IMG/VR virus record: IMGVR_UViG_2671180921_000030 | Location: 1 to 45,744 of that record | Length of the DNA: 45,744 nt | Direction: 5' to 3' (one strand) | Source of the DNA: a virus | Lineage: Duplodnaviria > Heunggongvirae > Uroviricota > Caudoviricetes | Part shown: positions 343-15,849 of the stretch, piece by piece | Position numbering within the stretch: the stretch's first letter is position 1 | Layout of the letters: each line of letters begins with the position of its first letter | The notes under the pieces: model-generated | What the model saw: only the letters and a program-made list of their open reading frames with translations | What the model was told of the DNA's origin: nothing | Databases searched by the model: none | Program-made: the position numbers and the translations under genes

Positions 343-375
343 TTACCTAAAATAGCCTTTTGATTTCCAATAAAA

Positions 376-413
376 AAACCGCCTCAGTTCTTTCACCAGA
401 ACGGGCGGTTTTT
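376..413 (+). terminator. Rho-independent terminator after yebY
   Basis: Interrupted GC stem (ccgcc..gttct/agaac..ggcgg) followed by a T run. Confidence 0.5.
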
Positions 414-500
414 AACATTTCAGCTGATGACCACCACGCTTTTTATTGACCATTTTGCACGCAAACTGGAAAACCTGGCGTCGTCATCTATTCTTAAAGG

Positions 501-603
501 GCAAGGCAACTAAGCCTGCATTAATGCCAACTTTTAGCGCATGGCTCTCTCCCAAGAGCCATTTCCCTGGACCGAATACAGGAATCGTATTCGGTCTCTT
601 TTT
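501..603 (+). ncRNA. sdsR: SdsR (RyeB) small RNA
   Basis: gcaaggcaactaagcctgcattaatgcc...ccgaatacaggaatcgtattcggtctcttttt matches my recollection of SdsR, including the terminal hairpin and U tail; lies between yebY and the prophage. Confidence 0.7.
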
Positions 604-604
604 A
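578..604. repeat. attL core (left copy of a 27-bp direct repeat)
   Basis: ACAGGAATCGTATTCGGTCTCTTTTTA here and ACAGGAATCGTGTTCGGTCTCTTTTTA at 44652..44678 (26/27 identical); integrase gene is adjacent. Confidence 0.6.
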
Positions 605-636
605 ATTGTATTTAAAATCAATTAGTTGCAAGCATC

Positions 637-656
637 TCCCCGAAATTCCCCGAAAT
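637..656. promoter_or_regulatory. Tandem TCCCCGAAAT repeats, candidate integrase arm-type sites
   Basis: Two tandem copies between attL core and int; related TCCCGAAATT near attR (44506..44515). Confidence 0.3.
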
Positions 657-734
657 TTACTCGAATTTCTGTATTCCGGTCTTTTTTGGTTATATCACAA
701 CCAATATACATTTAACAATCCATTTACGTTAAAA

Positions 735-1811: not shown

Positions 1812-2064
1812 GTTTTAACTTCTCCAGTAACGGACTGTCTCTCCCTTGTCGCCCATTAGGCTGATGGTGTGTTATATCGGTATCAACCTTATTTGGGTTG
1901 ATATAGAAAGCCTCCGGAACCACTCTGTAACTCCTCCCGTGTAGTTCAGGTGCAGGATAAATGTTTCCATTCCTTGCCCATCGTCTCAGCGTTGATATTG
2001 ATGGTGGGTTATCCGGATATCTGAGTTTTCCCCACGTTTTGAGTGTCACAAGATTCATTGCCAT
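1777..2064 (-). CDS. xis: Excisionase
   Basis: 95-aa ORF directly upstream of and overlapping int; small basic protein typical of Xis/AlpA-like excisionases. Confidence 0.65.
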   Translation of the reverse strand: MAMNLVTLKTWGKLRYPDNPPSISTLRRWARNGNIYPAPELHGRSYRVVPEAFYINPNKVDTDITHHQPNGRQGRDSPLLEKLKHAAEKIRSQFA

Positions 2065-2164
2065 ACCTCTTACGATATGACCGCCAGTAAATATACAGAA
2101 TACTGGCGGGTGTGGTTGATTTTTAATAATCAGCTATGAAGTTCTAATTTGTATATAATGCAAC

Positions 2165-2353
2165 TCACGAGGACAGAAGTTTCTCGCAATTAAAATTTAT
2201 CAGCTTTACTTTCTGCTCTCTGGACACGCCTGCTTCTTTTTTCCCTGAGAGCATTTTTTCGCATTCTGATTTCGTTAATTTAGATTTTGAATATCTTGTC
2301 CAGTTAGTAGGAGTGCCACCTTCCTTTTCAATAGTGGCAGTAATTTTATACAT
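2165..2353 (-). CDS. YdaC-like small phage protein
   Basis: Start trimmed to the ATG preceded by GGAGGTG; overlaps ralR stop; position as in Rac prophage. Confidence 0.45.
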   Translation of the reverse strand: MYKITATIEKEGGTPTNWTRYSKSKLTKSECEKMLSGKKEAGVSREQKVKLINFNCEKLLSS

Positions 2354-2540
2354 GAACACCTCCATTATTATTTCCAGTAGTTCGTTTATTCCATCTTTCG
2401 AGTGCTTCTTTTTCACTTCCACTATAGCCGGTTCGGGATTCGCATCCGTTACACTTTGCGCGGTAATATCCTGAAATGGCTTTCACCGTAACAGATGGAC
2501 AACCACAAAACGGACATGGTTTAACATCGTCATATCTCAT
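2346..2540 (-). CDS. ralR: Restriction alleviation protein Lar/RalR
   Basis: 64-aa product MRYDDVKPCPFCGC...GGVHV with Cys-rich motif; matches recollection of Rac RalR; start chosen by homology, no strong SD. Confidence 0.65.
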   Translation of the reverse strand: MRYDDVKPCPFCGCPSVTVKAISGYYRAKCNGCESRTGYSGSEKEALERWNKRTTGNNNGGVHV

Positions 2541-2596
2541 AATTTTTGTCATAAAAACTGTCTCACGTTGGCGGTGCATTACACCGCCTGGCTGAA

Positions 2597-3406
2597 TTAT
2601 TCTTCTGAATTATCGATTACACTGTATTCCCCGGTTAATACAGAGGAGTCTGCCGGATCGATTGTCAGTGGTTCCTTTTCATCCATTGATACTGCACGCT
2701 GGATTTCAATTGAGACAGGCAGGTATTTAAACAGGCGACGAATAGCCGTTTTTTTTGCCATTTCTTCCCAGTGAGTTACCCACGGCCCGTTATTACCTGC
2801 CTTACTCTGGCTGCGCACCAGTTCAATCTGTTTGCGCGTCATAACTTCAAACTGAGTCCCTCCGTCTTTCAGTCTTGCGACAGCATAGACGTGGGTCACT
2901 GGTGCATCTTCGTTTTCTCCCGGGCGGTGTATTAACTTTTCATCAAGGCCAAATTCAAAACTAAACTCGTCACCTTCACGGACAACACGGGCTGACAGGC
3001 TGGCGATTTGACCAGAACGGCGAGCCAGATCAATCATGCCGCGATAACCAATGATTAGCTGAACGTTCTTTTTACCGCTCTTTTCGTTTTTATTACCAAA
3101 AGGCAGTAAATATGCGTGGCCGAGGGCGCTACCTGGCTCAAGGCCGAGCTGTGAACACTGAACGATCGCACTGACAAAACTCATGGTGTCACAGTTTCCT
3201 AGCGCCGGAACCTTACGAATTTCTGTAGTGGCGATACGTATCATTCGTTCAGCCGTCATATGGCGTGGGAGAGCTGCTGCCAGTTGCTCTTTCATTGATG
3301 GCTGATTAATAAAGCTGATCACGTCGTTATTTTTTACTGCTGCTGGTGCACGGTTTCCCTGAGTTTTTTGCAGATCGGCTTTTGCGATAGGCGGTTGCTT
3401 AGTCAT
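2597..3406 (-). CDS. recT: RecT single-strand annealing protein
   Basis: Product begins [14 protein letters not shown], 269 aa; ORF trimmed to the second ATG; overlaps recE stop. Confidence 0.9.
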
Positions 3407-6071
3407 TTGCATACTCCTTAGCCCAGCGGGGCAGTGATAACGTTTTAATAGCTGGCCATTCATCGGTATTCAGGCAGTCAGCCAGGGTCCTCAGATTGCG
3501 GTGATATTCCTGCTGGCCTGCCAGTTTTGCTTCTTCGCCCATCATGAAAATCTCAACCGGGTAACGTCCGCATTCAACAGTTGTGCTGGCAACCAGAAAA
3601 ACGAAAGTTGGCAGCACACCAAACTGTGCTTCATAACCGTCACTGTAGAATGCATCCTGAACGTGATAGCGGTAGTCGTAATAAGCCGTTTTGAATCGTT
3701 GAATATCCGCTGTGGTTTTCACGTCCATGATCCAGTGAAATTCAGGAATAATTTTGTCCGGACGGCACCGACACAAAATTCCTGTTTCCGGATCTTCCCA
3801 GTAAATTGATGATTCAGCGTGTCCGGCGCTTTCCACAAGCCATTGACCCAGCGGCAAAGCCATAACGCTCTGATACATGAGTTCAATTTTCCGGCCTTCT
3901 TCGGCAGTGATAACCGTTTTTCCTGTGCTTGCGCATTCCATCAGAAACGCTTTCTCTTCTTCTTTTCCGGCGTTTGTACGGCGGTTAAATTCAGGTGCTA
4001 CGATAAAGCGGTTACTGAATTCTTCCGGTTCAAGTACACGGCAGTGGAAAGCGGTTCCTAAATCGAGCGTTTTTGTCTTTGTGGTGTCCACAGGGGCATT
4101 TTTACGCCACAAATACAGCGCCGGAGTATCAGCAATGTCGTCGAGCTGAGACTTACTGACACCGGGACCCGCGTGGTAATTCTCATTCGAAATTCCGTAA
4201 TAAATACCAGGCTCTATGTCTCCTGCGATTACGGGATCTGCGACTTCGCCAGTTTCATCACTGCAATCGCGATGCAGATCGCTGCCAGCATTCTCATTGT
4301 GCGGATGTTCAGGGCCTTCCATTTCCTCCGGCTCTTTTTCCTGAGATTCATCCAGATTTTCTTCATTAAAGGTTTCCTGATACGTTGCGTCGCCCATCAC
4401 CGCGCCACAGTCAGGACAGTTGCCGCCGCCAGCCTGACCGCAGGCATTGCAGACTTTTTCCAGTTCCTGTTGCGCTTCTGGTTCATTTTGTCGCGCATTT
4501 TGGCCGTTTTGTTCCGATTTTCGGTCGTTCTGTTCTGTTTCTGGCTGATGCTGGTACACAGAATCGCGGGTCTGGATCCCTTTAACCCATTTCGGATCAT
4601 TCGGGTCGCTAATCCCTTCAACAAATTCTCCGCGAGAGGCAGCCAGTAATTTGTCTGCATCGACAGGATTTTTGGGCGGAATGTTTTTCCGGGCTTCATG
4701 GAGTTCTGCCCGCAGTTTCTGATATTTCGCATCAACAGAATTTACCTGTGACTGAGCATCCAGCGGCTGCGTGTCCTGATGATGTTCAGTTGCATCCGGT
4801 TCCACTGTTTCAGCCGTTGCCTGTTCATCTGCCATTGCGCAAGATGGTTGCGGTTTTTCTTCATCATCCTGTTTTTCTTCTTCTGTTACACGCTGCGGCA
4901 TCGGGGCAGAGGAGCGACCGCAGGCAATATCCACGATTTCCGGATCAGGGTTGGCATGATCGGTTTCAGTCAGTACTTTGTTCAGATATTCAGTGACGTG
5001 TGCGGGGATGACCTCGATCCCAATTGGTGCTTCTTTTACGGACGCAACCACGATGGCGCGGGAATAATCCAGCCCGCCAGGCATGGTGATGAATTTGTCG
5101 CGGAAAACAGAAAAGGGCGGTTTATTTTCAGCGATAATTTCCTCGACACGTTTAGCGTGTGCCGGATGAAGGTTATAAATGTCCACGTCCATTGAACGAG
5201 CCAGTACGCCAGTGGCTACGTCGCGCGCCAGTGACGTCAGATCGTGAACGAAACCTTCGCCGCGATCGGTGAGGTTCCCGCCGCCAGCATTAGCGCCGGA
5301 AGCCGTGCGCGTGATGCGTGAAACACGATTTCCTTTTCGCCATTCTTTTGTCAGAAGACTGCGATCAATGTGTTCGGTATCCAGCCAGGCTGAAATGAAA
5401 TTCTTAAATTCATAGGGCTGATGTTTTTTCGTGATAGAGAACACTGCCTTAATTGCATCAGTCAGGCGGAGCAGGGCGGCATTATCCAGAGTTGTCGGTT
5501 CTGCCATGCTGCGTATGGCCAACAGCAGATTCTGGACATAGCTGTTTTCCTGATCCATCTCAAGAGCAGTAATGTGTTTGCGTTGTTCACGGGTGGCATG
5601 ATGCAGGTATTTCCGATCCCCGGCTGCATACGTAAATATGTGCAGAAGACGCTGTGTGAACCGCAAAGTGGCTACAGAGACTTCGCAATCCTGGCAATCC
5701 TCGTGGGCGTCTGCCTGCGCGTTTTCTTCCTGGCCTCCCGCCAGTTCTTTGGTTTCTTGAGCATTATCCTGGTGGTGAACGTCGTCTGGCGCTGCTCCCG
5801 GTTTTAGTTCCCAGGTCATGGAGTCTTTGCTGAGTTGATAGCGGTCACTCCAGGTAAAATCGATCTCACCTTCAGGGGGAAGGTCATTAACGACAGGAAA
5901 ATTCGTGGCAACAGGTTTAAAATAGCTGCTCAGTTTTTTGCCTGACTTAACGAGCAGGTAGTCCAGAGTGGCACAGGTCGATTCAAGATCGTCGCTTGCC
6001 CACAGGACGACGTCAGGTTCACCGGATGATTTTTTCGCTTTCCGTAACAGGAAGAGTGGTTTTGTGCTCAT
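3399..6071 (-). CDS. recE: Exodeoxyribonuclease VIII (RecE)
   Basis: 890-aa ORF beginning [14 protein letters not shown]; acidic linker region; upstream of and overlapping recT. Confidence 0.85.
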
Positions 6072-6201
6072 TGTTTTTTAACCTCAACTCAGATTAAAAT
6101 TCGTTTTGTTCAGTGAATGATCTTGCCGGATACACACTGTTCATAGCCTGCGTATGGCGCAGGCTATTTCTTTCAGATTTCACCGCCTAATTTCATTGCA
6201 A

Positions 6202-6447
6202 TCAGAGTTGCCAGAAATCCGGCTTTTTTTCTGCGGGCAGATTCTTTCCGATGTGAACCAGGCACATTTTTGTGACACCTTCATCAAGTGTTTTTACGTT
6301 GCCTGATGGACCGTCGATATCAACCACAGTGAATGGGGTTTCTTTATTTTCTGTTTTAATCACGTAGCCAATACGCTTTCCTTCCAGATTAACCTCGTGA
6401 ACAATGTCATCGGTCGTTACAACAGTGGCTTCATAACTGGTAATCAT
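6202..6447 (-). CDS. racC: RacC-like protein
   Basis: Start trimmed to MITSYEATVV preceded by AAGGAG; Rac-like position between recE and ydaE. Confidence 0.55.
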   Translation of the reverse strand: MITSYEATVVTTDDIVHEVNLEGKRIGYVIKTENKETPFTVVDIDGPSGNVKTLDEGVTKMCLVHIGKNLPAEKKPDFWQL

Positions 6448-6521
6448 GTTTTTCTCCTTAATTAAGGTTGAGCGAATCCCTGCCATTGCTGGCATAAATT
6501 TAGTTTCGGATAGTCAGTTAA

Positions 6522-6698
6522 TTAAAGTTCGTGTGCCATCTGGTCTTTTTCGGCACAGATTTCACTACAATATTTTTTCATTTCCGTCGTTGGTATAACT
6601 CCACGCATGAAATGAAGTGGTCTTGTAATGATTTTGCTTTCTTCAATTTCTTTATTGCAAAGGTGATAAGCACATTTTATTTTCTTAGTCATCACCAT
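6522..6698 (-). CDS. ydaE: YdaE-like Cys-rich small protein
   Basis: 58-aa ORF not in the track ([20 protein letters not shown]...[15 protein letters not shown]) found by translating the minus strand; overlaps kilR stop. Confidence 0.5.
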
Positions 6699-6913
6699 GA
6701 CTCCGCCTTTACAGGTAAACCATCACGACCGAGGAAGACTTTAATCATGCAGTCAGTAATGCATGTTTTTGTGGTCAGGTTACGAATATAAAGTTTTCGC
6801 TTTTTAATATTGTTTGCCGAGGCAATATATGTCCGGCCTTCATGAAGAACATAATCGCCAGGAGTCACACACTGACGTGGTATTTCATCAGTTCCGAAGT
6901 GATGAGCAATCAT
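6692..6913 (-). CDS. kilR: Killing protein KilR (cell division inhibitor)
   Basis: 73-aa product [30 protein letters not shown] matches recollection of Rac KilR. Confidence 0.7.
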
Positions 6914-7380
6914 AATTATCTCCATTTTTACAAATGAACTTTGTTGATGCGGTGCCTGGTGCCTCCAGGTGACGTTAACCAGTTAACAATTAACGCCGGA
7001 ATACAGGGACCCGCCTGCAAGTACCTACCCATAAGTATTGATACGGAGAACAAATGGCCTTTTAACTGTTCCGCGTGCGCTTAGCCGCATTCACCGCATC
7101 ACAAAATTCACTTTAAAAAGGGCGGACATCAGCCAGCAATGAAACTGATGCCGCCAAAAGGTAATCAACATGGGTTGTTGCAGCGGGGTTGTCACTTAAG
7201 CGTATGGTCAGCCTGACAACCCGGTGTTATCTCGAGGAAAGGATAGCCTCGCCATACTTACCGCCGCGCCATTTCGCGGATTGCCACAACCGGAAGCGCA
7301 CGGTCGAAGAAATTTAACGACAAGCCTTCTAAGGGAAAAACACCTCCTCCGTGCGCTTTCGTGTTGTGCGCCTGTCTTTT

Positions 7381-7409
7381 TTTACCACTTCAGGCTCGGT
7401 GGTATACTG
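7381..7409 (+). promoter_or_regulatory. Sigma70-like promoter (TTTACC, 17 nt, TATACT)
   Basis: Hexamers with 17-nt spacing about 35 nt upstream of ORF 7443..7637. Confidence 0.35.
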
Positions 7410-7442
7410 GAGTTCTCACACAACCAGTAATAAGGTATTCCG

Positions 7443-7637
7443 ATGGATAATAAAGACAAAGCCTGGCTACTTGCTTTAGCTTTCAGCATCAGATCGCAGC
7501 GAGAAACAACTCATCAAGAATTTTTCTCGGAAATCGAGAATGCTGAGAATGAGTTTTTGTCACTACTCAATGAACGTGATGCTAAAAAAAGCGCCGATTC
7601 ACTTAAGGCTTGGGCGAAACTAGGCTCTTCAAAATAA
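7443..7637 (+). CDS. Hypothetical small protein with own promoter
   Basis: 64-aa ORF with non-repetitive sequence and AAGG upstream; convergent overlap with 7603..7821. Confidence 0.35.
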   Translation: MDNKDKAWLLALAFSIRSQRETTHQEFFSEIENAENEFLSLLNERDAKKSADSLKAWAKLGSSK

Positions 7638-7821
7638 TTGCTTCTGTAGCGGCATGAACAACTGTTTTTGCCGCCTCTTCAACTTCCTTGTCTGGACGAC
7701 CAGCCTTTACTTTTTCTGCAATGACCTCCAGCACAGTTGGAAGAACCTTGCTAATAAGCATGGCTGCCACATCTTTGCTGCACAATTGACCGTTAATAAC
7801 AACCAGATCTTCACCAACCAT
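7603..7821 (-). CDS. Hypothetical early-region protein
   Basis: Trimmed to ATG preceded by AAGGGG; lies between the repressor and kilR. Confidence 0.4.
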   Translation of the reverse strand: MVGEDLVVINGQLCSKDVAAMLISKVLPTVLEVIAEKVKAGRPDKEVEEAAKTVVHAATEAIILKSLVSPKP

Positions 7822-8065
7822 CTTTTTTCCCCTTAACGCCGGGTGGCGGAACGTTTTATCTACTGCGCTTTGTATCAATCAACAACTGCCGTCATGTTCG
7901 TATGCCTCAGGCTGGCTACTTAGCCCTGTTCAGTGGCTGGATAACTCGAGGTATTGTCCTGCCGTTCTCTGGTGGAGCGTTGTTTGGATATGACGAATGC
8001 TCACATATCGTGAGTGATTTGTCAACTCAATATGTGAACAATGTTGTTTTTGGATTTTTGATGGA

Positions 8066-8099
8066 CAAAAAAAGCCCTCGCTAATAGCGAGAGCTTTTT
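8066..8099 (-). terminator. Terminator downstream of the repressor gene
   Basis: GC stem gccctcgc/gcgagagc flanked by A7 and T5. Confidence 0.45.
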
Positions 8100-8125
8100 G
8101 ATTGGAATCGAGGGAGATTAAAGGT

Positions 8126-8515
8126 TTAGGAGGATTTTTTCTGTTGCCTGCTTCTTAGATATTTTTCCACATACTCATCAAGCTCTTGAAGACGGATTTC
8201 GAACAGATCAATCATGCGTGCTTGTTCTGATCCCGGGAGCTGATTAAACAGCTCTAGCATTTTTTTCTGGTTATCATTTAACCATGAGTACGTGTTTTCC
8301 TGTTCACCGAACATTAATTCTGCGGGGGAAATGCCTAGTACTTGGCCGAGGATGATCGCATCCTCAGCCCCCACACTCCTGGTGCCAGCTTCGTAGTTAG
8401 CAATACGAGAAGAACCTGACCAACCACATAGTTTTGCCAGGTTTCCCATACTTAATCCTCGATTTAGGCGAGTGGCTTTTAGGCGCTCGCCTATTTGTTC
8501 TGCAATCGTTTTCAT
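8126..8515 (-). CDS. CI-like HTH (XRE family) repressor
   Basis: Trimmed to MKTIAEQIGERLKATRLNRGLSMGNLAKLCGWSGSSRIANYE (helix-turn-helix); divergent from Cro-like gene. Confidence 0.7.
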   Translation of the reverse strand: MKTIAEQIGERLKATRLNRGLSMGNLAKLCGWSGSSRIANYEAGTRSVGAEDAIILGQVLGISPAELMFGEQENTYSWLNDNQKKMLELFNQLPGSEQARMIDLFEIRLQELDEYVEKYLRSRQQKKSS

Positions 8516-8609
8516 AGTTCCGATTTTATCACGATGTGTGAAATTGGCGGTACTCACGTATCTGTAGTTGATCTCACTCACGAAATGTGAATAATAGAAA
8601 CAGGAGGTA
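8516..8609. promoter_or_regulatory. Immunity-region divergent promoter/operator interval
   Basis: 94-bp gap between divergent repressor and cro-like genes with repeated ACTCACG and TGTGAA motifs. Confidence 0.4.
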
Positions 8610-8855
8610 ATGATGAACAAAATTTCAACATATCGAAAACAGCTTGGGCTGTCTCAAAGACAACTTGCTGTTCAGTTAGGGTGGATACAAAGCCGACTGG
8701 CAAATTACGAAGCAAATTTTCGTACCCCTGGGCTAGAGGAGTGCAGAAAAATTGTTTCTACCCTTAATCGGCTTGGTGCTCATTGTGGACTTGACGATGT
8801 ATTCCCCCCTGACGGTAAGCATAGCGAAAACAGCATAGGAGCGGTTGATTCATGA
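8610..8855 (+). CDS. Cro/YdaS-like HTH protein
   Basis: HTH signature QLGLSQRQLAVQLGWIQSRLANYE; AGGAGG upstream; true start may be the second ATG at 8613. Confidence 0.6.
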   Translation: MMNKISTYRKQLGLSQRQLAVQLGWIQSRLANYEANFRTPGLEECRKIVSTLNRLGAHCGLDDVFPPDGKHSENSIGAVDS

Positions 8856-9278
8856 AAATCAAGCATGAGCACATCGAATCAGTGTTGTTAGCCCTGGCAG
8901 CCGAAAAAGGGCAGGCGTGGGTCGCTAACGCAATTACTGAAGAATATCTGCGCCAGGGGGGGGGGCGGCGAATTGCCCCTTGTACCAGGCAAGGACTGGA
9001 ACAATCAGCAGAATATCTATCACCGTTGGTTGAAAGGTGAAACGAAAGCGCAAAGGGAAAAAATTCAGAAACTGATCCCTGCGGTTCTGGCAATTCTTCC
9101 GCGCGAGCTGCGTCACCGACTCTGCATCTTCGATACCCTGGAACGCCGTGCATTACTGGCGGCGCAGGAAGCGTTGAGTACGGCAATTGATGCGCATGAT
9201 GATGCAGTCCAGGCCGTTTACCGGAAAGCACATTTCAGCGGTGGTGGGTCGCCCGGCGATTCTGTCGTAGTGCATTGA
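8852..9278 (+). pseudogene. YdaT-like gene split by a frameshift at a G10 tract
   Basis: ORFs 8852..9040 and 8973..9278 in different frames overlap at the G run 8956..8965; removing one G gives one continuous reading frame. Confidence 0.5.
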
Positions 9279-9322
9279 TTGAAATTAATCGTGCCGGATT
9301 GTTTTGTTCGGTATCAGTTAAA

Positions 9323-9766
9323 TGTAACGCTGCGAGCGTTACAAGGTGAAAACAAATGGCTTCAAACTGGATAAAGCTCGAGGTTATTACGCCGGATAAG
9401 CCGGAAATATTCAGGCTTGCTGAGATTCTGAATATTGATCCAGATGCCGCATTAGGGAAGGTTATTCGCTTCTGGGCATGGGCGGATCAACAAATGATAG
9501 ACGGTAATGCAGATTGTAACGCTCGCGGCGTTACAAAAAGTGCAATAGATCGCATCACTTTTATGGCTGGTTTTGCTGATGCGTTAATTCAGGTTGGATG
9601 GCTGGTCGAAAATGACGGTGGGCTTTCTCTACCTAACTTTGAACGTCATAACGGGAAAAGCTCTAAAAAACGGGCGGTTACAAACGAGCGAGTTACAAAA
9701 ATACGCGAACTGAAACGAAAAGGTAACGCTGGCAGCGTTACACAAATGGATCAAAAAGCGTTACCA
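9323..9766. repeat. Iteron-like TGTAACGC-N5-GCGTTACA palindromes, candidate replication origin
   Basis: Palindromes at 9323..9343, 9515..9535 and 9724..9742 plus extra GTTACA half-sites at about 9675, 9689 and 9758. Confidence 0.4.
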
Positions 9767-10150
9767 GAGGAAGAGGAAGAGGAAGAGGAAGATATAAATA
9801 CTGATCTCCCCCTAAATCCCCCTCGCCAAAAACGAGCGTCTAAAAAATTTGAGCCGGAGGCTATTGAGCTGCCCGATTGGTTGCCGGAAACACTCTGGCA
9901 TGAGTGGGTCCGGTTCAGGCAGGCATTGCGAAAACCGATTCGAACGGAGCAGGGCGCTAACGGGGCGATACGGGAGCTGGAAAAATTCCGCCAGCAGGGT
10001 TTTACACCTGAGCAGGTGATTCGACACAGTATCGCCAATGAATACCAGGGCCTGTTCGCGCCGAAAGGTGTTCGGCCTGAGACGTTGCTCCGACAGGTTA
10101 ACACCGTCTCGTTGCCGGACAGTGCGATCCCGCCAGGCTTCAGGGGGTAA
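9356..10150 (+). CDS. Phage replication initiation protein
   Basis: 264-aa ORF just upstream of DnaC-like loader; internal acidic E8 stretch encoded by (GAGGAA)4; iterons inside its 5' half. Confidence 0.55.
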   Translation: MASNWIKLEVITPDKPEIFRLAEILNIDPDAALGKVIRFWAWADQQMIDGNADCNARGVTKSAIDRITFMAGFADALIQVGWLVENDGGLSLPNFERHNGKSSKKRAVTNERVTKIRELKRKGNAGSVTQMDQKALPEEEEEEEEDINTDLPLNPPRQKRASKKFEPEAIELPDWLPETLWHEWVRFRQALRKPIRTEQGANGAIRELEKFRQQGFTPEQVIRHSIANEYQGLFAPKGVRPETLLRQVNTVSLPDSAIPPGFRG

Positions 10151-10156
10151 CAGGCC

Positions 10157-10903
10157 ATGAAAAATATTGCGACAGGAGGCGTTCTGGAGCGTATCCGCAG
10201 ACTGACCCCACCACATGTAACCGCCCCATTCAGAACGGTTGCGGAGTGGCGCGAGTGGCAACTTGCTGAAGGCCAGAAACGTTGCGAGGAGATCAACCGC
10301 CTGAATCGTCAGTTGCGGGTGGAAAAAATCCTGAATCGCTCTGGCATCCAGCCGTTGCACCGCAAATGCTCGTTTGCGAATTACCAGGTGCAGAACGAAG
10401 GGCAGCGATACGCGTTAAGCCAGGCGAAATCCATCGCCGATGAACTGATGACCGGGTATACAAATTTTGCGTTCAGCGGAAAACCTGGTACCGGGAAGAA
10501 TCACTTAGCGGCAGCTATCGGGAATCGCCTGCTGAAAGACGGTCAGACAGTGATTGTGGTTACCGTGGCTGATGTTATGAGCGCCCTGCACGCCAGCTAT
10601 GACGACGGGCAGTCAGGCGAAAAATTTTTGCGGGAGCTGTGCGAAGTGGATCTGCTGGTTCTTGATGAAATTGGCATTCAGCGCGAGACGAAAAACGAGC
10701 AGGTGGTGCTGCACCAGATTGTTGATCGCCGGACAGCGTCGATGCGCAGCGTGGGGATGCTGACAAACCTGAACTATGAGGCCATGAAAACATTGCTCGG
10801 CGAGCGGATTATGGATCGCATGACCATGAACGGCGGGCGATGGGTGAATTTTAACTGGGAGAGCTGGCGTCCGAATGTTGGTCAGCCAGGAATTGCGAAG
10901 TAA
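10157..10903 (+). CDS. DnaC-like replicative helicase loader (IstB-like AAA+ ATPase)
   Basis: Walker [16 protein letters not shown] and Walker B LLVLDEIG. Confidence 0.8.
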
Positions 10904-10925
10904 TTTTTACCGGGAGGAAATTTTA

Positions 10926-11687
10926 ATGGAGACTGTTTTTGACGCACTGAAAGCAATGGGAAAAGCCACATCCATAGAACTTGCTGCGCGACTTGATATC
11001 AGTCGTGAAGAAGTGCTGAACGAACTATGGGAACTGAAAAAGGCTGGTTTTGTTGATAAAAGCGCGTACACCTGGCGTGTGGCTGATAACAACGTTCAGC
11101 AGGAACAGCCAGCGCAGGCAGAACTGCCGGAAGAAACCACCACAGCAACAGTAGCGAAAATCTCAGAGTGCGATTTAACCGCTACGATTGAACAACGCGG
11201 ACCACAAACGGCTGATGAGCTGGCTACATTGTTTGGTACCACATCACGCAAAGCGGCTTCAACGCTGGCAATGGCAATCAGCAAAGGTCGTCTGATTCGC
11301 GTAAATCAGGGCGGTAAATTTCGTTACTGCATGCCGGGCGGTAATTTACCAGCAGAGCCGAAAGCTGCATCGGTAGCGGAAACAGATGGTAAAGCCTTTC
11401 CTCAGCTAGCCGGTGTTGCGTTACCAGTACAGGAAGCTGCAACACAGGAAGATATTAAAACAGAAACTGTGGCGGACATTGTGCAGTCGTTGCCATCGTT
11501 TACTGAAACGCAAGCGGATAACCTGATTTTACCATCGCTGCATATGGCAAACCGTGAACTGCGTCGGGCGAAAAATCATGTCCAGAAGTGGGAGCGAGTC
11601 TGCGCCGCGCTGCGGGAGCTGAACAAGCACCGGGATATTGTTCGACAGATTTTCGATTCCTCCAGTCGTATTGTGTCGGAAAAGTGA
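10926..11687 (+). CDS. Hypothetical phage protein with two winged-helix-like repeats
   Basis: Start trimmed to [13 protein letters not shown]; repeats [30 protein letters not shown] and [33 protein letters not shown]. Confidence 0.4.
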
Positions 11688-12133
11688 TTGCCGGAGGCAC
11701 CTATGGCAAAGTATTTACACCAGAAGAGCGGGAAAAAATTAAAGGGCAGGTTGTTGAACTTGTACGTCTGAGCGGTCGCGAGACGTTACGGGCTCTGGAG
11801 GCTAAAACCGGTGCATCAAGGTATTACATAAGCACTCTCGCCAGAGAACTGGTCGCCAGTGGTGATGTTTACAATTCAGGCTACGGATTATTCCCGTCTG
11901 AGCAGGCTCGTAAGGACTGGCAAAACGCCCGCAAAAAACTATCCAGGGCAAAGGTGAAAAAAACGGTTGTGGTTGATCCTGACCTTATCTGGTCATTACC
12001 AGACGGAGAAATACGCCGCTACGACAGGCGCCTGAATATAATCTGTCGCGAGTGCCGGAAAAGCGAAGTTATGCAGCGTGTACTGGCATTTTACCAGAGT
12101 AATTTCAGGAGGTTGTCTGGTGAGCACGATTAA
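11684..12133 (+). CDS. Hypothetical protein
   Basis: Open frame beginning at a GTG that overlaps the upstream stop; function unknown. Confidence 0.35.
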
Positions 12134-12158
12134 CTACTAGGGGGGATAACAATAAAAT

Positions 12159-12178
12159 AAAGCCTCCTAGGAGGCTTT
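12159..12178. terminator. Perfect 20-bp palindrome, bidirectional terminator
   Basis: AAAGCCTCCTAGGAGGCTTT with A-rich and T-rich flanks between convergent genes; the methyltransferase stop codon is in its centre. Confidence 0.5.
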
Positions 12179-13207
12179 GATTATATTAAGCAAATGTTTT
12201 CCAATCGTTTCAGACATCTTCGGAGGGACCGCATTTCCTATTTGACGAGCCCGAGATTGCAAAGAACCAATAAATTTATAATCCAAAGGAAATGTTTGTA
12301 GACACGCTGCTTCACGAACCGATATTGCTCGATTTTGTGTTGGATGTCCAAAACGTCCATTTGAATAGCTAATACAACGAGTTGTTAGTCCGCTGGCTGG
12401 TTTGTCCCAACTCAAACGTCCATATACGTCTGTATGCCCTTTATGGTTACGATGGCATTCTAAAATCAATTCATCTGGCCAAAATTCTCGACTTCCACCT
12501 TCAGGAGTGCATTTTATTCTACGTAAATTAAGCTCTGATAAGCGTGCAGCTTCATGATCAGGAATACTATTATGCTTTTCTCCTGCTTCTATCTTCGGTA
12601 AATTAGCGATCCAGTCCTTTACTGTTGAATAGGGAGTATTTCCAACCCCATGTGTAGGAGAAGGCAATGCGACATAAAAATCCTTGGATGCAATGAGCAC
12701 TAATCTTTCTCGCGTCTGTGGTACACCGTACCACGCAGCTGGCATTACTTTATAATCTACACTATATCCCTTTGATGAAAGCATTTCTAAAAACATCATG
12801 AATGTTCCTTCATTTTTGTTAAACTTTTGCATTCCTGGCACGTTTTCAACAAAAATAAAATCAGGCATATAATGCTCTACAAAGCGACTGAATTCCTTTA
12901 ATAGATCTAATCGTGGATCATCATTTTTCTTATTTGAGTTTTGCTTAGAGTACGGTTGACAAGGCGCACATCCTGAAAAAAGAATGTAATCATTACGATG
13001 TTTTTTTACTAACTTGTTTATGGCATTGTTGTCGATTAACCTAATGTCCGAGTTAATAAAAGCAGCCTGCGGGAAATTTGCACGAAATGAACTGGCTGCA
13101 TCAACGTCGAAATCGAGGCCAAAAACAATATCCATTCCAGCTTGATGGAAACCTTGGCTGGTTCCACCACAACCGGAAAAGAAGTCAAACACTTTGATTT
13201 TTTTCAT
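12167..13207 (-). CDS. DNA (cytosine-5)-methyltransferase
   Basis: Motif I FDFFSGCGG, motif IV PCQPYS, ENV, QTRERL, GNAVPP; trimmed to MKKIKVF preceded by AGAGGGA; AT-rich by inspection. Confidence 0.85.
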   Translation of the reverse strand: MKKIKVFDFFSGCGGTSQGFHQAGMDIVFGLDFDVDAASSFRANFPQAAFINSDIRLIDNNAINKLVKKHRNDYILFSGCAPCQPYSKQNSNKKNDDPRLDLLKEFSRFVEHYMPDFIFVENVPGMQKFNKNEGTFMMFLEMLSSKGYSVDYKVMPAAWYGVPQTRERLVLIASKDFYVALPSPTHGVGNTPYSTVKDWIANLPKIEAGEKHNSIPDHEAARLSELNLRRIKCTPEGGSREFWPDELILECHRNHKGHTDVYGRLSWDKPASGLTTRCISYSNGRFGHPTQNRAISVREAACLQTFPLDYKFIGSLQSRARQIGNAVPPKMSETIGKHLLNIIKAS

Positions 13208-13230
13208 TTTTCCCTCTGCATCCAGAATCA

Positions 13231-15060
13231 CTACCTAATGATACCACGGTCAAGAGCCTGAGTAATTATTTTTCTTATTTTTATAAATTCAGGCAATTCA
13301 TTTTTAAGTCTTGCGGTCATCATTTGTTGGAGGCAAAAAATTTCCTCTGCATTTACTTCTTCTTTATCATACAGGTGTTGCGCTAATAATCTTATTTGAT
13401 TCTTATACAGTTCTGGATCATTAGAACTCCAGGTCTGTGAATCAATTATTTCTTTTTCACTTGGCGTAATTGCCTTTTCAATGAGTAATTGTTCGGGAGT
13501 ATCAAATGGTAAATACTGCACTTTATTGAATGCATACTCAAGCACTTGCCTTTTGAGTCTATTAGATTCTTGTTCATTTTTTTTGCCATTACTACCACTG
13601 GCATTGATAATTAACTCGCAACCATAATATTTGCACATTGTATTAACTAAATCAGCATCAGCAATTTCACTAATTCTTACTGGTTTTATTTTTTTGTTGT
13701 TATCACCATCAAGTAAAAACAAAATATCATTGCGTTCTACCACAGCGTAACTGGGAAGATGCTTGCTTAAAATGGTCTCCGAACCACCTGGTATATAACT
13801 TACACTAAATGATAAGCTTAATCTTTCATCATTTTTAATCGCTTTATCTATAATTGCTTTAGCTAATTTATCTTCTACAATTATTGTTTTCTTGTTAATA
13901 TCATGCCCTAGCTCTATAAAAGCTTCATCCGGTGCTATATTTTGAACTATTTTAGCTGTTTCACTCTCTTCATCAAAAACAAATAATTTAATGGCATCTT
14001 TGGGAAGAGTGTTCACAATAACAGGAGAATGGGTTGATATTACCACTTGATGTTTTTTCTGCTCAACAATAGAGTACAGAACATCCATCATCCTTTTTTG
14101 TGCACCAGGGTGAAGTGAAACTTCTGGTTCGTCAAGAAGAATTAATGAATTAGGTTTGGCCGAATAAATATTGAGTATTAGTGAAACTATTGCAAATTCA
14201 CCACTTCCAGCAAACGCTTCTGTATAGTTCAACTTATCAGTTGAAAGTAAAGCGGTTCCTCCTCTGGTTCCAAATAACCGATGCTCAAGAAATTTAATGA
14301 CTTTATATTTTTTCCCTAATATAAATGAGACGTGCTCAACTAGTTCTGGCGCCAAGGTTATATTTTTAACAATGGTTTCCGCCCCCCAGAGTCTTAAATT
14401 ACTTAGCTTTTCATCAAAAGCTTTCTTTATATATTTAGATTTGCTTCTGATATAGTCTTGCTTTGTAATTAATACACCACTCTTCTTCTTTCTTAATTTA
14501 AAATCAGAGTGATACATACATCTATCAAATGCACTTATTTCCGATCTGAAATCTAGGAAAACCAATCCCTTCTTGATTTTTTTCCATCTGGTTGCATTAC
14601 TATTAGCACCCAGATCATCCGAAATACTCTCCATGTTATCACCAACAGATGGTCGACTTGTTTCCCAATAATCGATTGTTTTCTTGGTAGCATTGATACG
14701 TGCTTGGAGTATTTCAACTAAACGGCCATCAGCATTTTTATATCCATATATATATCTAGGTTTAAGAGAACTGCCATCAGCAAGTTTTAGGTCAGGAAAC
14801 TCATCTGTTTCAGTTGTGAACCAATAACGAGTTATATTTTTACCATGTGGGCAACCAAATAGCGCTTTGATAACAGAACTTTTATTAGTTCCATTTTTTC
14901 CTACTAAAGCCGTTATAGGGAACTGAAAATCGATCCTTGCATTCTGCTCTATATTTTTAAAGTATGGAAAACGGATATGTTGTATGAATGGTTCAAATTC
15001 ACCGTTTTTTAACGCGCACTGGAGTGTTCGAATTTTGCTCTTGTATGCGGAAGTGCTCAT
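13231..15060 (-). CDS. OLD-family ABC-ATPase with C-terminal TOPRIM nuclease domain
   Basis: Walker A LVGKNGTNKSS, Walker B/D-loop LLDEPEVSLHP, H-loop ISTHSP, TOPRIM-like IIVEDK and LFLLDGDN; 23-nt gap to downstream methyltransferase. Confidence 0.75.
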   Translation of the reverse strand: MSTSAYKSKIRTLQCALKNGEFEPFIQHIRFPYFKNIEQNARIDFQFPITALVGKNGTNKSSVIKALFGCPHGKNITRYWFTTETDEFPDLKLADGSSLKPRYIYGYKNADGRLVEILQARINATKKTIDYWETSRPSVGDNMESISDDLGANSNATRWKKIKKGLVFLDFRSEISAFDRCMYHSDFKLRKKKSGVLITKQDYIRSKSKYIKKAFDEKLSNLRLWGAETIVKNITLAPELVEHVSFILGKKYKVIKFLEHRLFGTRGGTALLSTDKLNYTEAFAGSGEFAIVSLILNIYSAKPNSLILLDEPEVSLHPGAQKRMMDVLYSIVEQKKHQVVISTHSPVIVNTLPKDAIKLFVFDEESETAKIVQNIAPDEAFIELGHDINKKTIIVEDKLAKAIIDKAIKNDERLSLSFSVSYIPGGSETILSKHLPSYAVVERNDILFLLDGDNNKKIKPVRISEIADADLVNTMCKYYGCELIINASGSNGKKNEQESNRLKRQVLEYAFNKVQYLPFDTPEQLLIEKAITPSEKEIIDSQTWSSNDPELYKNQIRLLAQHLYDKEEVNAEEIFCLQQMMTARLKNELPEFIKIRKIITQALDRGIIR

Positions 15061-15208
15061 TGTTTACTAAAGTCCATAATAGGCTATTAACAGGTTGAGG
15101 ATGACATGATAACGATTTTTAATGCAGATAAAAGAGGTTTGTTGGTTAGCACACAACAGAAAAAGTGACCTTACCGCTTGAACGAAAGGTAAGGGTAAGT
15201 AGGCTGTG

Positions 15209-15361
15209 ATGCAGCAAAAGACGATGTTAACCGCCCTGATCGTCATCTGTTTAACCGTCATTGTTACGGCACTGGTAACGAGAAAAGACCTCTGCGAGGT
15301 ACGAATCCGAACCGGCCAGACGGAGGTCGCTGTCTTCACAGCTTACGAACCTGAGGAGTAA
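15209..15361 (+). CDS. hok: Hok/Gef-family type I toxin
   Basis: 50-aa ORF below the track cutoff: MQQKTMLTALIVICLTVIVTALVTRKDLCEVRIRTGQTEVAVFTAYEPEE, almost identical to my recollection of HokD/RelF. Confidence 0.75.
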   Translation: MQQKTMLTALIVICLTVIVTALVTRKDLCEVRIRTGQTEVAVFTAYEPEE

Positions 15362-15429
15362 GAGACTAGGCGAGGGAGAAATCCCTCGCCACCTCTGATG
15401 AGTCAGGCATCCTCAACGCACCCGCGCTT

Positions 15430-15452
15430 AACCCGTTTCGGCGGGTTTTTTG
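15430..15452 (+). terminator. Rho-independent terminator downstream of hok
   Basis: Stem acccg/cgggt followed by T6. Confidence 0.5.
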
Positions 15453-15483
15453 TTGCGCGCTGAATACGCAGGGTGAAAAATAA

Positions 15484-15556
15484 CCATATATTTGATTATA
15501 TACACAACACAAAATAAAAGTCATTGTACCTGCACATTAAATAATCAAATATATGG
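15484..15556. repeat. Perfect 16-bp inverted repeat pair with 41-bp spacer
   Basis: CCATATATTTGATTAT (15484..15499) and its exact reverse complement ATAATCAAATATATGG (15541..15556). Confidence 0.6.
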
Positions 15557-15636
15557 CGTGAAATAAATATTTTTCAGATTAATATTTTTGTCTCTATGTG
15601 GATATAACCTTTTGTACTTATAAACCTGGAGGCATC

Positions 15637-15849
15637 GTGGAAAAAATAAAGAAACTATTTAGTAGCAAATACGCAGTCATACGTCGTGATGACCTGTCAG
15701 TTATAGTCGAAATGGATTACTTCCCTGAAATCCCAAAATCAATGATGTATCGTAATGGTCGAAAGGCAATTTTTTTACCGATGAGGGTAAGTGACATTAT
15801 GGGAAATGATAAACTGCTGGATGAATTGCGAGTCAGAGCATCCTGTTAG
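15637..15849 (+). CDS. Hypothetical nin-region protein
   Basis: Trimmed to GTG preceded by GGAGG. Confidence 0.35.
   Translation: MEKIKKLFSSKYAVIRRDDLSVIVEMDYFPEIPKSMMYRNGRKAIFLPMRVSDIMGNDKLLDELRVRASC

What the first reader, a model, noticed from the sequence alone, without database searches (positions are those of the whole stretch)
15484..15556. Perfect 16-bp inverted repeat pair between hok and the nin genes
CCATATATTTGATTAT and its exact reverse complement are separated by 41 bp in an AT-rich intergenic region. A perfect 16-bp inverted repeat is unlikely by chance. It could be an operator for a dimeric regulator, a large RNA hairpin, or the ends of a tiny mobile or recombination element marking the edge of the accessory island.
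Basis: seen in the sequence. Interest (0 to 1): 0.45.

Follow-up and report, generated by a model that had tools for sequence, protein, structure and literature searches.

The report
Leftward RNA hairpin beside prophage hok
The perfect 16-bp inverted repeat is real, but it is a rare allele of a conserved stem-loop that pairs fully only when the opposite (leftward) strand is read as RNA and that ends in a run of U, so it looks like the terminator or body of a small unannotated leftward transcript in a lambdoid prophage rather than an operator or a mobile element.

Summary
Observation confirmed: CCATATATTTGATTAT (15484-15499) and its exact reverse complement (15541-15556), 41 nt apart. This is beyond chance: 0 of 150 window shuffles and 0 of 5000 local shuffles reach it.

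It lies in the 184-bp AT-rich spacer between the hok terminator (15430-15452) and orf70 (15637-15849, phrog_1813), followed by DUF1367, YbcO and a Q-like gene.

It is single-copy: 177 of 5426 complete E. coli genomes carry it, one copy each, always in this prophage context. It has no target-site duplication and no further half-sites, so it is not MITE-like or operator-like.

The perfect form is rare (4 of 77 loci; at most 7 of 177 genomes). Almost all mismatches in relatives are A·C on the + strand and G·U on the - strand.

As minus-strand RNA, 26 pairs (17 outer, 9 inner) are kept at 25.5/26 on average over 28 haplotypes. The plus strand keeps 20/26. RNAalifold gives -20.2 against -5.7 kcal/mol. 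UUAUUUUU follows the hairpin on the minus strand, back-to-back with the hok terminator.

Best reading (about 45%): a leftward RNA stem-loop or terminator of a short, OOP-like transcript. No transcript data exist and no convincing promoter was found. Interest is moderate to low.

The parts
15484..15499 (.). Left arm of the perfect 16-bp inverted repeat. It is the 3' arm of the hairpin when the minus strand is read as RNA.
   Evidence: invariant 12-bp core ATATTTGATTAT in three sequence classes
15541..15556 (.). Right arm of the inverted repeat (5' arm on the minus strand). It carries the polymorphic sites 15542, 15554, 15555 and 15556.
   Evidence: 15554 is C (on +) in 72 of 77 loci and T only in the window allele.
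15475..15557 (-). Proposed RNA element on the minus strand. The outer helix is 15557-15541 paired with 15483-15499 (17 pairs, including G·U at 15557/15483). The inner helix and apical loop follow, then the U-rich tail.
   Evidence: RNAfold -24.1 kcal/mol, z -4.0 to -4.5; RNAalifold consensus of 26 pairs at -20.2 kcal/mol; 97.6% of cells paired
15500..15535 (-). Inner helix and apical loop. 15531-15535 pairs with 15500-15504, 15529 with 15506, and 15525-15527 with 15507-15509. The apical loop is about 15510-15524 (CAAUGACUUUUAUUU), invariant in 77 loci.
   Evidence: GC<->GU<->AU changes at the 15533/15502, 15529/15506 and 15527/15507 pairs
15475..15483 (-). U-rich tract UUAUUUUUC immediately 3' of the hairpin on the minus strand (GAAAAATAA on +).
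   Evidence: Read from the sequence. It is kept in the window, O177:H21 and L160 classes and is weaker in L155/L156.
15430..15452 (+). Intrinsic terminator of hok (GC-rich stem plus T run). It is convergent with the minus-strand hairpin, with about 22 bp between the two tails.
   Evidence: Homology with K-12 Qin hokD ends just after it.
15206..15361 (+). hok-family type I toxin gene, the left neighbour.
   Evidence: PF01848, E 3e-23; PGAP names it hokD in the identical LWY24 locus
15637..15849 (+). orf70, a small protein of unknown function with a GGAGG Shine-Dalgarno sequence. It is the first gene of the module to which the hairpin segment is always attached.
   Evidence: phrog_1813, E 3e-32; narrow E. 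coli/Shigella family
15495..15524 (-). Predicted leftward sigma-70-like promoter P2 (-35 ATGACT 15524..15519, 18-nt spacer, -10 TATAAT 15500..15495). It lies inside the hairpin DNA, so a transcript from it would lack the 5' arm.
   Evidence: 10 of 12 match. It is the best PWM hit on either strand in 15400-15760. The hexamers and the 18-nt spacing are kept in all four classes, including the class without the hairpin. Prediction only.
15566..15594 (-). Weak candidate promoter that could start a leftward RNA about 3 nt before the hairpin (-35 GAGACA 15594..15589, 17-nt spacer, -10 AATATT 15571..15566).
   Evidence: 8 of 12 match, PWM score 2.7. The flanking blocks are conserved and the spacer is variable between the window and L155 classes. 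Inference only.

Best explanation
The inverted repeat is the DNA image of an RNA stem-loop that is made from, and selected on, the minus strand. That strand is antisense to the rightward hok and nin genes. It has a 15-nt invariant apical loop and is followed at once by UUAUUUUU. I therefore read it as the 3' hairpin and terminator, and perhaps the whole body, of a short leftward transcript. It would be comparable in layout to lambda OOP RNA, a small leftward RNA embedded in the rightward early operon. It sits tail-to-tail with the hok terminator at the joint between the variable cargo island and the conserved orf70-nin-Q module.

What is shown: the repeat exists; it is single-copy; pairing is preserved on one strand only, through G·U intermediates and a few double changes; a U tract follows it.

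What is inferred: that a leftward transcript crosses it; that it terminates or stabilises that transcript; and that its role is to stop leftward transcription from entering hok, or to yield an RNA antisense to rightward read-through transcripts.

The perfect 16-bp form in this window is one transition (C to T at 15554) away from the common allele and has no special status.
For: - All common mismatches are A·C on the + strand, which is G·U on the - strand.
- **Free folding of each haplotype.** The minus strand gives -19 to -24 kcal/mol, z -2.5 to -4.9. The plus strand gives -9 to -11 kcal/mol, z about -0.2 to -1.1, for most alleles (tool folds).
- **RNAalifold on the same 16 haplotypes.** The minus strand gives 26 pairs at -20.21 kcal/mol. 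The plus strand gives -5.65 kcal/mol, with 10 pairs of the IR core among 13 predicted.
- **Pair counts.** 97.6% of cells are paired. Pairs show CG/UG/UA, AU/GU/GC and GU/GC/AU series. 1 of 500 shuffles reaches the observed covariation score.
- **Counts over 77 loci and 28 haplotypes.** 58 loci have 26 of 26 pairs. The mean is 25.5 on the minus strand, 20.0 on the plus strand and 19.7 Watson-Crick.
- **Allele frequencies.** Structure-compatible variants are common (15, 6, 27, 13 and 4 loci in the window class). Disruptive variants are rare (1, 1, 5, 2 and 2 loci).
- **Local composition.** The A/C excess on the + strand is confined to the hairpin (GC skew -0.33). The flanks and the wider region show the opposite or none. 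This argues against a regional mutational bias.
- **Conservation.** The hairpin segment is conserved as well as or better than its neighbours. Against L155 it is 82%, versus 72% for the adjacent flank. Against L079 it is 68%, versus 44%.
- **Terminator-like layout.** The U tract abuts the stem on the minus strand only, and the hok terminator is convergent with it.
Against: - **No transcript data.** Nothing shows that this strand is transcribed.
- **No convincing promoter.** The two best predicted leftward promoters (P1, P2) would start inside the hairpin. The only candidate that would include both arms is weak (8 of 12).
- **Not a canonical intrinsic terminator.** The stem is AU-rich, the structure is long and composite, and the apical loop is 15 nt. 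The terminator scan does not call it. The U tract is degraded in the L155/156 class.
- **The event-level test is only suggestive.** I counted by hand about 11-12 minus-compatible transitions against 5 plus-compatible ones and 4 transversions, giving a one-sided p of about 0.07. The haplotypes are also closely related.
- **Circularity.** The inner helix was defined by folding the minus strand, which favours that strand.
- **Not universal.** The class with 55% orf70 identity (L077-L087) has no hairpin. The P0011 class replaces the segment with a LexA-box promoter. IS1-associated deletion of the segment is tolerated in prophages.
- **No known family or target.** There is no Rfam match on the minus strand. 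There is no significant complementarity to neighbouring translation-initiation regions.
Confidence: 0.45

Rival explanations
1. A neutral relic. An old inverted duplication or quasi-palindrome in an AT-rich promoter or spacer region is drifting, with no function of its own. The window allele happens to have been made perfect by one C-to-T change, or by hairpin-templated correction.
For: The perfect form is rare and one step from the common allele. The L077 class lacks the repeat, and the L003 class has only 10 of 16 Watson-Crick pairs. The segment can be deleted (IS1 loci) or replaced (P0011 class). Polymorphism density is similar in paired and unpaired columns (my count). The event-level strand test gives only p of about 0.07.
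Against: Neutral decay should give A·C and G·U mismatches in equal numbers on either strand. The observed means are 5.8 and 0.2 per locus. Disruptive variants are confined to rare alleles. The minus-strand folding z-scores stay at -3 to -5 across three classes that differ at 16-23% of positions in the hairpin. The local composition skew is opposite to that of the surrounding DNA. The segment is more conserved than the adjacent spacer.
Confidence: 0.25
2. A promoter region rather than an RNA structure. The arms and spacer carry sigma-70 elements: leftward P2 with its -10 in the left arm and -35 in the spacer; leftward P1 with its -10 in the right arm; and an A/T-rich UP-like tract for a rightward orf70 promoter (-35 GTGAAA at 15558-15563). 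Sequence conservation would reflect these elements, and the symmetry would be a by-product.
For: P2 scores 10 of 12 and is the best PWM hit in 360 bp on either strand. Its hexamers and 18-nt spacing persist even in the L077 class, which has lost the hairpin. A/T-rich symmetric -10 elements commonly give divergent promoters (general knowledge).
Against: Promoter hexamers explain the conservation of about 12 of 73 positions. They do not explain the one-strand G·U pattern or the compensatory changes at the base of the stem, outside any hexamer. In 900 bp of this composition, 1.8 such promoter matches are expected by chance. There is no experimental start site.
Confidence: 0.15
3. A protein-binding site. 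This would be an operator for a dimeric phage or host regulator, or paired IHF-like bending sites (each arm contains AATCAA-N4-ATG, close to WATCAANNNNTTR), controlling orf70 or the nin operon.
For: The 12-bp core of both arms is conserved in three classes. The position is upstream of orf70. In another class, orf70 relatives are controlled by a palindromic LexA box.
Against: The arm centres are 57 bp apart, which is not an operator geometry. There are no extra copies of the half-site in the prophage, including its immunity region. The outer arm positions change on one arm only and always in the G·U-compatible direction, which a DNA-binding dimer would not favour. The common allele (ACG) worsens the IHF TTR match. 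orf70 has no detectable DNA-binding domain, and its structure model is uninformative (pLDDT 50).
Confidence: 0.08
4. The hairpin works on the rightward (plus-strand) early transcript, as a processing site or terminator. Alternatively, it is the pair of terminal inverted repeats of a MITE-like or recombination element.
For: The perfect allele folds at -15.7 kcal/mol on the + strand. The IR lies within 30 bp of a mosaic joint.
Against: 73 of 77 loci have A·C mismatches on the + strand and fold no better than shuffles. No U tract follows the right arm on the + strand. There is one copy per genome in 177 genomes, no target-site duplication, and no other copies found by BLAST or the covariance model.
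Confidence: 0.05

Closest known systems
Lambda OOP RNA (pO-tO unit)
   Same: A short leftward transcription unit embedded in the rightward early operon of a lambdoid phage. It consists essentially of a hairpin plus a U tail and lies in a short spacer between rightward genes. This comparison rests on my own knowledge and on the review PMC12197685.
   Different: OOP has a mapped promoter and a compact GC-containing terminator, and it overlaps the 3' end of cII, which it represses with RNase III. Here no promoter or transcript is demonstrated, the stem is long and AU/GU-rich, no coding sequence is overlapped, and there is no sequence similarity. Rfam finds nothing on this strand.
Rho-independent (intrinsic) terminators, including convergent or back-to-back pairs at module joints
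   Same: A stem-loop with C-G pairs at its base is followed at once by UUAUUUUU. It is placed tail-to-tail with the hok terminator at a mosaic boundary.
   Different: The stem has 17 plus 9 pairs with only 2-4 G-C pairs, several G·U pairs, an internal bulge and a 15-nt apical loop. It fails a standard consensus scan. No upstream leftward gene is present.
Sok-type antisense RNAs of hok/sok loci
   Same: A small RNA antisense to the toxin operon's direction, in a hok locus, with one long hairpin and a U tail.
   Different: Sok is encoded at the 5' leader of hok/mok and is complementary to it. This element lies downstream of the hok terminator, does not overlap hok mRNA, and shows no significant complementarity to the hok initiation region. 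It also travels with orf70 when hok is absent (L003, L012, L160).
MITEs and other small elements bounded by inverted repeats
   Same: Two terminal inverted repeats of 16 bp enclose a short AT-rich core, 73 bp in all.
   Different: It is single-copy, has no target-site duplication, always sits in the same context, and its arms evolve as an RNA helix.

Membership tests
Intrinsic (Rho-independent) terminator, minus strand | U-rich tract (5 or more U in 8) directly 3' of the stem | tested here: met
   UUAUUUUU at 15483..15476 directly after the last pair. It is kept in the window, L003 and L160 classes and weakened to CAUCUUUC in L155/156.
Intrinsic (Rho-independent) terminator, minus strand | Compact G+C-rich stem (about 5-14 bp) with a 3-8 nt loop | tested here: not met
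   The consensus scan finds no minus-strand terminator here. The stem is AU/GU-rich and composite, with a 15-nt apical loop.
Intrinsic (Rho-independent) terminator, minus strand | RNA 3' ends map to the U tract, at the end of a transcription unit | not testable with these tools
   No transcriptome data are available. No leftward gene lies upstream.
OOP-like cis-antisense small RNA gene | Own promoter placed so that the transcript includes the hairpin | tested here: inconclusive
   Only a weak 8 of 12 candidate (15594..15566) would include both arms. The stronger P1 and P2 would start inside the hairpin.
OOP-like cis-antisense small RNA gene | Structure conserved on the transcribed strand, with compensatory or wobble changes | tested here: met
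   97.6% of cells paired on the minus strand against 77% on the plus strand. CG/UG/UA and AU/GU/GC series are present.
OOP-like cis-antisense small RNA gene | Overlap with, or complementarity to, a target coding region | tested here: not met
   The element lies wholly in the non-coding spacer. Duplex energies with the hok, orf70 and DUF1367 initiation regions are no better than shuffled controls (z +0.95 to -0.79). It would be complementary only to rightward read-through RNA.
Any described RNA family (Rfam 15) | Covariance-model match at or near the gathering score | tested here: not met
   No credible minus-strand match (best is mir-242_2 at 13 bits against 56). The only notable hit is isrK-like at 26.9 against 50 bits, on the + strand over the hok 3' UTR.
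MITE / IS-derived element | Multiple copies per genome or dispersal to different contexts | tested here: not met
   177 of 5426 genomes carry it, median 1 and maximum 2 places, always with the orf70 5' region. There is 1 phage and 1 plasmid record, in the same context. The covariance model finds no other copy.
MITE / IS-derived element | Target-site duplication flanking the terminal repeats | tested here: not met
   The flanks are ...AAATAA| and |CGTGAA... with no direct repeat at the arm ends.
Palindromic operator of a dimeric regulator | Two half-sites one or two helical turns apart, both kept symmetric in relatives | tested here: not met
   The arm centres are 57 bp apart. Watson-Crick symmetry falls to 12-14 of 16 in most relatives while the G·U pattern is kept.
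Palindromic operator of a dimeric regulator | Cognate binding protein, or repeated operators elsewhere in the element | tested here: not met
   The core motif with up to 2 mismatches gives 8 matches against 6.1 expected, none in the immunity region. orf70 has no Pfam domain. Protein binding itself is not testable here.

The most novel reading that the evidence does not exclude
The 15475-15594 block is a self-contained, so far undescribed prophage small-RNA gene: a weak constitutive leftward promoter, a long G·U-rich hairpin with an invariant 15-nt loop, and a U tail. The RNA would pair with rightward transcripts that read through the hok terminator. By RNase III cleavage or interference, it would gate entry of early transcription into the orf70-nin-Q module. 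That would make it an OOP/aQ-like timing device for the lysis decision, sitting at the cargo/nin boundary of Rac-like prophages. In sister lineages a LexA box does the gating instead.
Probability: 0.15. Interest if true: 0.55.

Novelty: new member of a known kind. Interest (0 to 1): 0.35.

Why it matters
If the leftward RNA exists, it adds an unannotated regulatory RNA or terminator to a prophage module present in about 3% of complete E. coli genomes, including O145, O111, O103, O55:H7, some O157:H7 strains and APEC O1. It sits exactly where variable cargo (hok and defence-like genes) meets the conserved nin-Q region that controls late-gene, and in Stx phages toxin, expression.

It also illustrates a general point for genome scans. 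A perfect inverted repeat can be the least informative allele. The imperfect relatives showed which strand is under selection.

If the RNA does not exist, the repeat is an ordinary decaying palindrome in an AT-rich spacer.

Tried and rejected
- **MITE or multi-copy element: rejected.** BLAST of 201 nt and of the 91-nt hairpin alone against 5426 E. coli genomes, the phage collection and the plasmid collection gives one copy in one context.
- **Operator: rejected.** The half-site search in the window is at chance level.
- **Rfam: nothing for the element.** Two evalue-threshold scans found no match. The weak isrK-like hit belongs to the hok 3' UTR. I read the IsrK paper (PMC4825925), and the architecture differs (isrK-orf45-anrP, no inverted repeat).
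- **More distant relatives of orf70, to test conservation.** The genome-contig scan gave only 2 loci. The protein database gave 19 clusters, all E. coli or Shigella. Three look-ups gave classes with a different upstream region: a LexA box and no IR.
- **Metagenome scan: wasted.** The same pattern on viral contigs returned only loci I already had.
- **orf70 as a possible DNA-binding autoregulator: uninformative.** I ran no fold search.
- **Trans targets: none found.** Duplex energies of the putative RNA with the hok, orf70 and DUF1367 initiation regions and the hok 3' end are not better than shuffled targets.
- **Literature: nothing.** Full-text search for the arm and loop sequences found 0 papers. 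Searches on nin-region antisense RNAs and a 2025 review of phage sRNAs found nothing at this position.
- **Regional mutational strand bias as the cause of the G·U asymmetry: rejected.** The skew is confined to the hairpin and is opposite to the flanks.

Full report
**1. The observation.**

The window reads CCATATATTTGATTAT at 15484-15499 and ATAATCAAATATATGG at 15541-15556. These are exact reverse complements with 41 nt between them. With one mismatch the repeat extends to 19 nt.

It is the only perfect inverted repeat of 12 bp or more with a spacer of 100 nt or less in the whole 45.7-kb window. The chance controls are:
- None of 150 dinucleotide-preserving shuffles of the window gives a perfect repeat of 15 bp or more.
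- None of 5000 shuffles of the local 184-bp, 30% GC spacer reaches 16 bp. Three reach 13 bp.
- The 16-mer with up to two mismatches occurs only at the two arms.

**2. Context.**

The left neighbour is a hok-family toxin gene (15206-15361, PF01848) with a canonical intrinsic terminator at 15430-15452. To the right lie:
- orf70 (15637-15849, GGAGG Shine-Dalgarno, phrog_1813, no Pfam domain);
- a DUF1367/NinB-like gene;
- YbcO;
- a DUF1133 Q-like antiterminator.

Further left, on the minus strand, are a C5 DNA methylase and an AAA_21/AAA_15 ATPase (12167-15060). The identical locus in E. coli LWY24 lies in a Rac-like prophage (recE, kilR, ydaT, ydaV).

**3. Not mobile, and not the island edge as such.**

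The 201-bp region occurs in 173 of 5426 complete E. coli genomes, and the 91-bp hairpin alone in 177. Each genome has one place (at most two), always chromosomal and always joined to the orf70 5' region. There is one phage record and one plasmid record, both in the same context.

A covariance model of the element finds no second copy in the window, in 100 or so related loci, or in 160 loci fetched by a loop pattern. No direct repeat flanks the arms.

Homology with K-12 Qin hokD stops just after the hok terminator, at about 15453-15457. K-12 has the unrelated rem gene instead of orf70. Three other left contexts (O177:H21, L012, L160) join at or just left of the same point. The mosaic joint is therefore 27-30 bp to the left of the repeat, and both arms belong to the orf70 module. 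A second joint lies near 15556/15557 in the O177:H21 class, where identity jumps from 82% to 96%. The repeat sits next to boundaries but does not delimit an insertion.

**4. The perfect repeat is a rare allele.**

The set is 77 loci that carry the segment (28 haplotypes; 72 viral contigs, 4 E. coli or Shigella genome loci, and the window itself).
- Only 4 of the 77 have the perfect 16 bp.
- At most 7 of 177 genomes are 99% or more identical over the hairpin.
- 72 of the 77 loci have C instead of T at 15554.
- 34 have C at 15542.
- 21 have A at 15556.
- 12 have A at 15555.

The haplotype of locus L008 differs from the window by the single 15554 change across hairpin, flanks and orf70.

**5. The decisive pattern: pairing is kept on one strand only.**

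The common mismatches are all A·C when the plus strand is read, and G·U when the minus strand is read.

| Class | Standard pairs, minus strand | Standard pairs, plus strand |
|---|---|---|
| Window | 15-16 of 16 | 13-15 (16 in the window allele only) |
| L155/156 | 16 of 16 | 12-13 |
| L160 | 16 of 16 | 13 |

Two pairs show full compensatory series through a G·U intermediate:
- 15484/15556 goes C-G, then U·G, then U-A.
- 15498/15542 goes A-U, then G·U, then G-C (L160).

Free folding of every haplotype gives the same answer (tool folds).
- Minus strand: -19 to -24 kcal/mol, z -2.5 to -4.9.
- Plus strand: -9 to -11 kcal/mol, z about -0.2 to -1.1, for most alleles.
- The window allele is the exception among its own class on the plus strand, at -15.7 kcal/mol.

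The minus-strand fold also extends the helix through the "spacer". This is seen most clearly by comparing classes. The L155 class reads GCGCGGC on the + strand where the window reads ACACAAC. All four G are replaced by A and all three C are unchanged. On the minus strand this turns G-C pairs into G·U pairs.

RNAalifold on the same 16 haplotypes gives a 26-pair consensus at -20.21 kcal/mol on the minus strand. On the plus strand it gives -5.65 kcal/mol, with 10 pairs of the IR core among 13 predicted.

Pair counting on the minus strand gives 97.6% of cells paired. Nine of the 26 pairs vary while staying standard, and 1 of 500 shuffles reaches the observed covariation score. Over 77 loci the mean number of standard pairs is 25.5 of 26 on the minus strand, 20.0 on the plus strand and 19.7 Watson-Crick. 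Fifty-eight loci have 26 of 26.

**6. Cautions on point 5.**

- The haplotypes are closely related.
- The inner helix was defined by folding the minus strand.
- My hand count of independent events is about 11-12 minus-compatible transitions, 5 plus-compatible transitions and 4 transversions. This is suggestive only (one-sided p about 0.07).

Three things argue that the asymmetry is nonetheless real.
- Compatible variants are common (15, 6, 27, 13 and 4 loci), while disruptive ones are rare (1, 1, 5, 2 and 2 loci).
- The A/C excess on the plus strand is confined to the hairpin (GC skew -0.33) and is opposite to the flanks and the wider region. It is therefore not a regional mutational bias. Prophages also sit in both orientations in different genomes.
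- The hairpin segment is as conserved as, or more conserved than, the adjacent spacer (82% against 72% for L155; 68% against 44% for L079).

**7. What follows the hairpin.**

On the minus strand the last pair is followed directly by UUAUUUUUC (15483..15475). On the plus strand nothing comparable follows the right arm. This U tract faces the T run of the hok terminator about 22 bp away, the usual picture where two convergent transcription units meet.

The element is not a textbook terminator. It has few G-C pairs, it is long and composite, and its apical loop is 15 nt. The consensus scan does not call it. The U tract is also weaker in L155/156.

**8. The missing piece: a leftward transcript.**

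All neighbouring genes on the right are rightward, so a leftward RNA would have to start within about 80 bp of the hairpin or inside orf70 in antisense. Three candidate promoters were found.
- P2 (-35 ATGACT 15524..19, -10 TATAAT 15500..495) is the best sigma-70 match on either strand in 15400-15760. It lies inside the hairpin DNA. Its hexamers and spacing are kept even in the class that has lost the hairpin. An RNA from P2 would lack the 5' arm.
- P1 (-10 at 15553..48) would also start inside the hairpin.
- A weak 8-of-12 candidate (GAGACA 15594..89 / AATATT 15571..66) would start about 3 nt before the hairpin and give an RNA of about 85 nt. Its flanking blocks are conserved and its spacer is variable between classes.

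None of these is verified. This gap is why my confidence in the RNA model is about 45% and no higher.

**9. Limits of conservation.**

- The orf70 class at 55% identity (L077-L087) has no hairpin (8-10 of 16 pairs, z about 0). There, a 61-62-bp stretch is bounded by direct repeats and is deleted in some members.
- A further class (P0011/P0013) has a LexA box overlapping a TATAAT in place of the segment.
- Three loci have IS1 together with a deletion of 15453-15585.

The element is therefore lineage-restricted and dispensable for carriage of the prophage.

**10. Comparison with known systems.**

- **Lambda OOP.** In layout the element resembles OOP, a short leftward hairpin-plus-U-tail RNA inside the rightward early operon. 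It lacks OOP's mapped promoter, compact terminator and overlap with a coding target.
- **Intrinsic terminators.** It shares the U tract and position but not the stem type.
- **Sok.** It is not Sok: it lies downstream of hok, has no complementarity to it, and travels with orf70 when hok is absent.
- **Rfam.** It matches no Rfam family.
- **Literature.** I found no paper that mentions its sequence.

**11. Verdict.**

The repeat is real and non-random. The operator and mobile-element readings fail their tests. The RNA-hairpin reading is supported, but on the strand opposite to the genes. The perfect symmetry that drew attention is incidental.

The most likely function is termination or stabilisation of a short leftward transcript at the cargo/nin boundary (confidence 0.45). 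The rivals are:
- neutral relic (0.25);
- promoter cluster (0.15);
- protein site (0.08);
- plus-strand hairpin or MITE (0.05).

I class it as a new, unverified member of a known kind. Interest is moderate to low.

Noticed in passing
L168 1457-1472; L169 265-280; L170 218-233; L171 905-920 (upstream of orf70 homologues P0011/P0013): A canonical LexA box (CTG-N10-CAG, TACTGTATATAATTACAGT) overlaps a TATAAT about 30-45 nt before the start codon of 76-aa orf70 relatives. It takes the place of the inverted-repeat segment. The orf70 family therefore seems to be an SOS-induced moron in some prophages. The window has no CTG-N10-CAG in 15000-16000.
   Followed up: partly
L059 2182-2949 and L064 1895-2662 (window equivalent 15453-15585): IS1 sits between the T run of the hok terminator and the position equivalent to 15586. 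The whole hairpin segment is missing, consistent with an IS1-mediated adjacent deletion. orf70 keeps only 52 bp of its upstream region.
   Followed up: partly
L077 2827-2903 compared with L078/L080/L085: In the orf70 class at 55% identity, the sequence GTCAAAAAATA[AG]CCA occurs twice as a direct repeat 61 bp apart. Three to four loci carry a single copy, a deletion or duplication between direct repeats at the place where the window has its inverted repeat.
   Followed up: partly
window 15370-15451 (+): There is a weak sub-threshold Rfam match of the hok 3' UTR to isrK (26.9 bits against a gathering score of 50). The match is two hairpins, the second being the terminator. The Gifsy-1 IsrK locus (isrK-orf45-anrP) also lies upstream of a Q-like antiterminator, but the architecture differs.
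   Followed up: partly
window 12167-15060 (-): A C5 cytosine DNA methylase (354 aa) and a 609-aa AAA_21/AAA_15 (AbiEii/OLD-like) ATPase form a leftward two-gene cargo unit next to hok. Relatives carry different cargo at the same place: ATPase plus a STAS-like protein in LWY24, and IS903B or ISVsa5 in LA3 and O177:H21.
   Followed up: no
L001 (PP818812.1, 'Actinobacillus phage vB_Apl-pPE4'): A phage record attributed to Actinobacillus pleuropneumoniae is 96% identical to this E. coli prophage segment and has the same gene order (hok, orf70, DUF1367, YbcO, Q-like). It is the only phage record with the element. The host attribution looks doubtful.
   Followed up: no
window 15598-15849 (+): An in-frame GTG 39 nt upstream would give an 83-aa version of orf70. 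One database cluster (P0003, 277 members) is annotated at that length, and the PHROG profile has about 12 extra N-terminal positions. The strong GGAGG before 15637 and the PGAP call favour the 70-aa form.
   Followed up: no
plasmid record CP100067.1 5725-5868: A 47.7-kb 'non-mobilizable plasmid' of E. coli carries the hairpin segment at 95.8% identity. It is probably a phage genome or an excised prophage filed as a plasmid.
   Followed up: no
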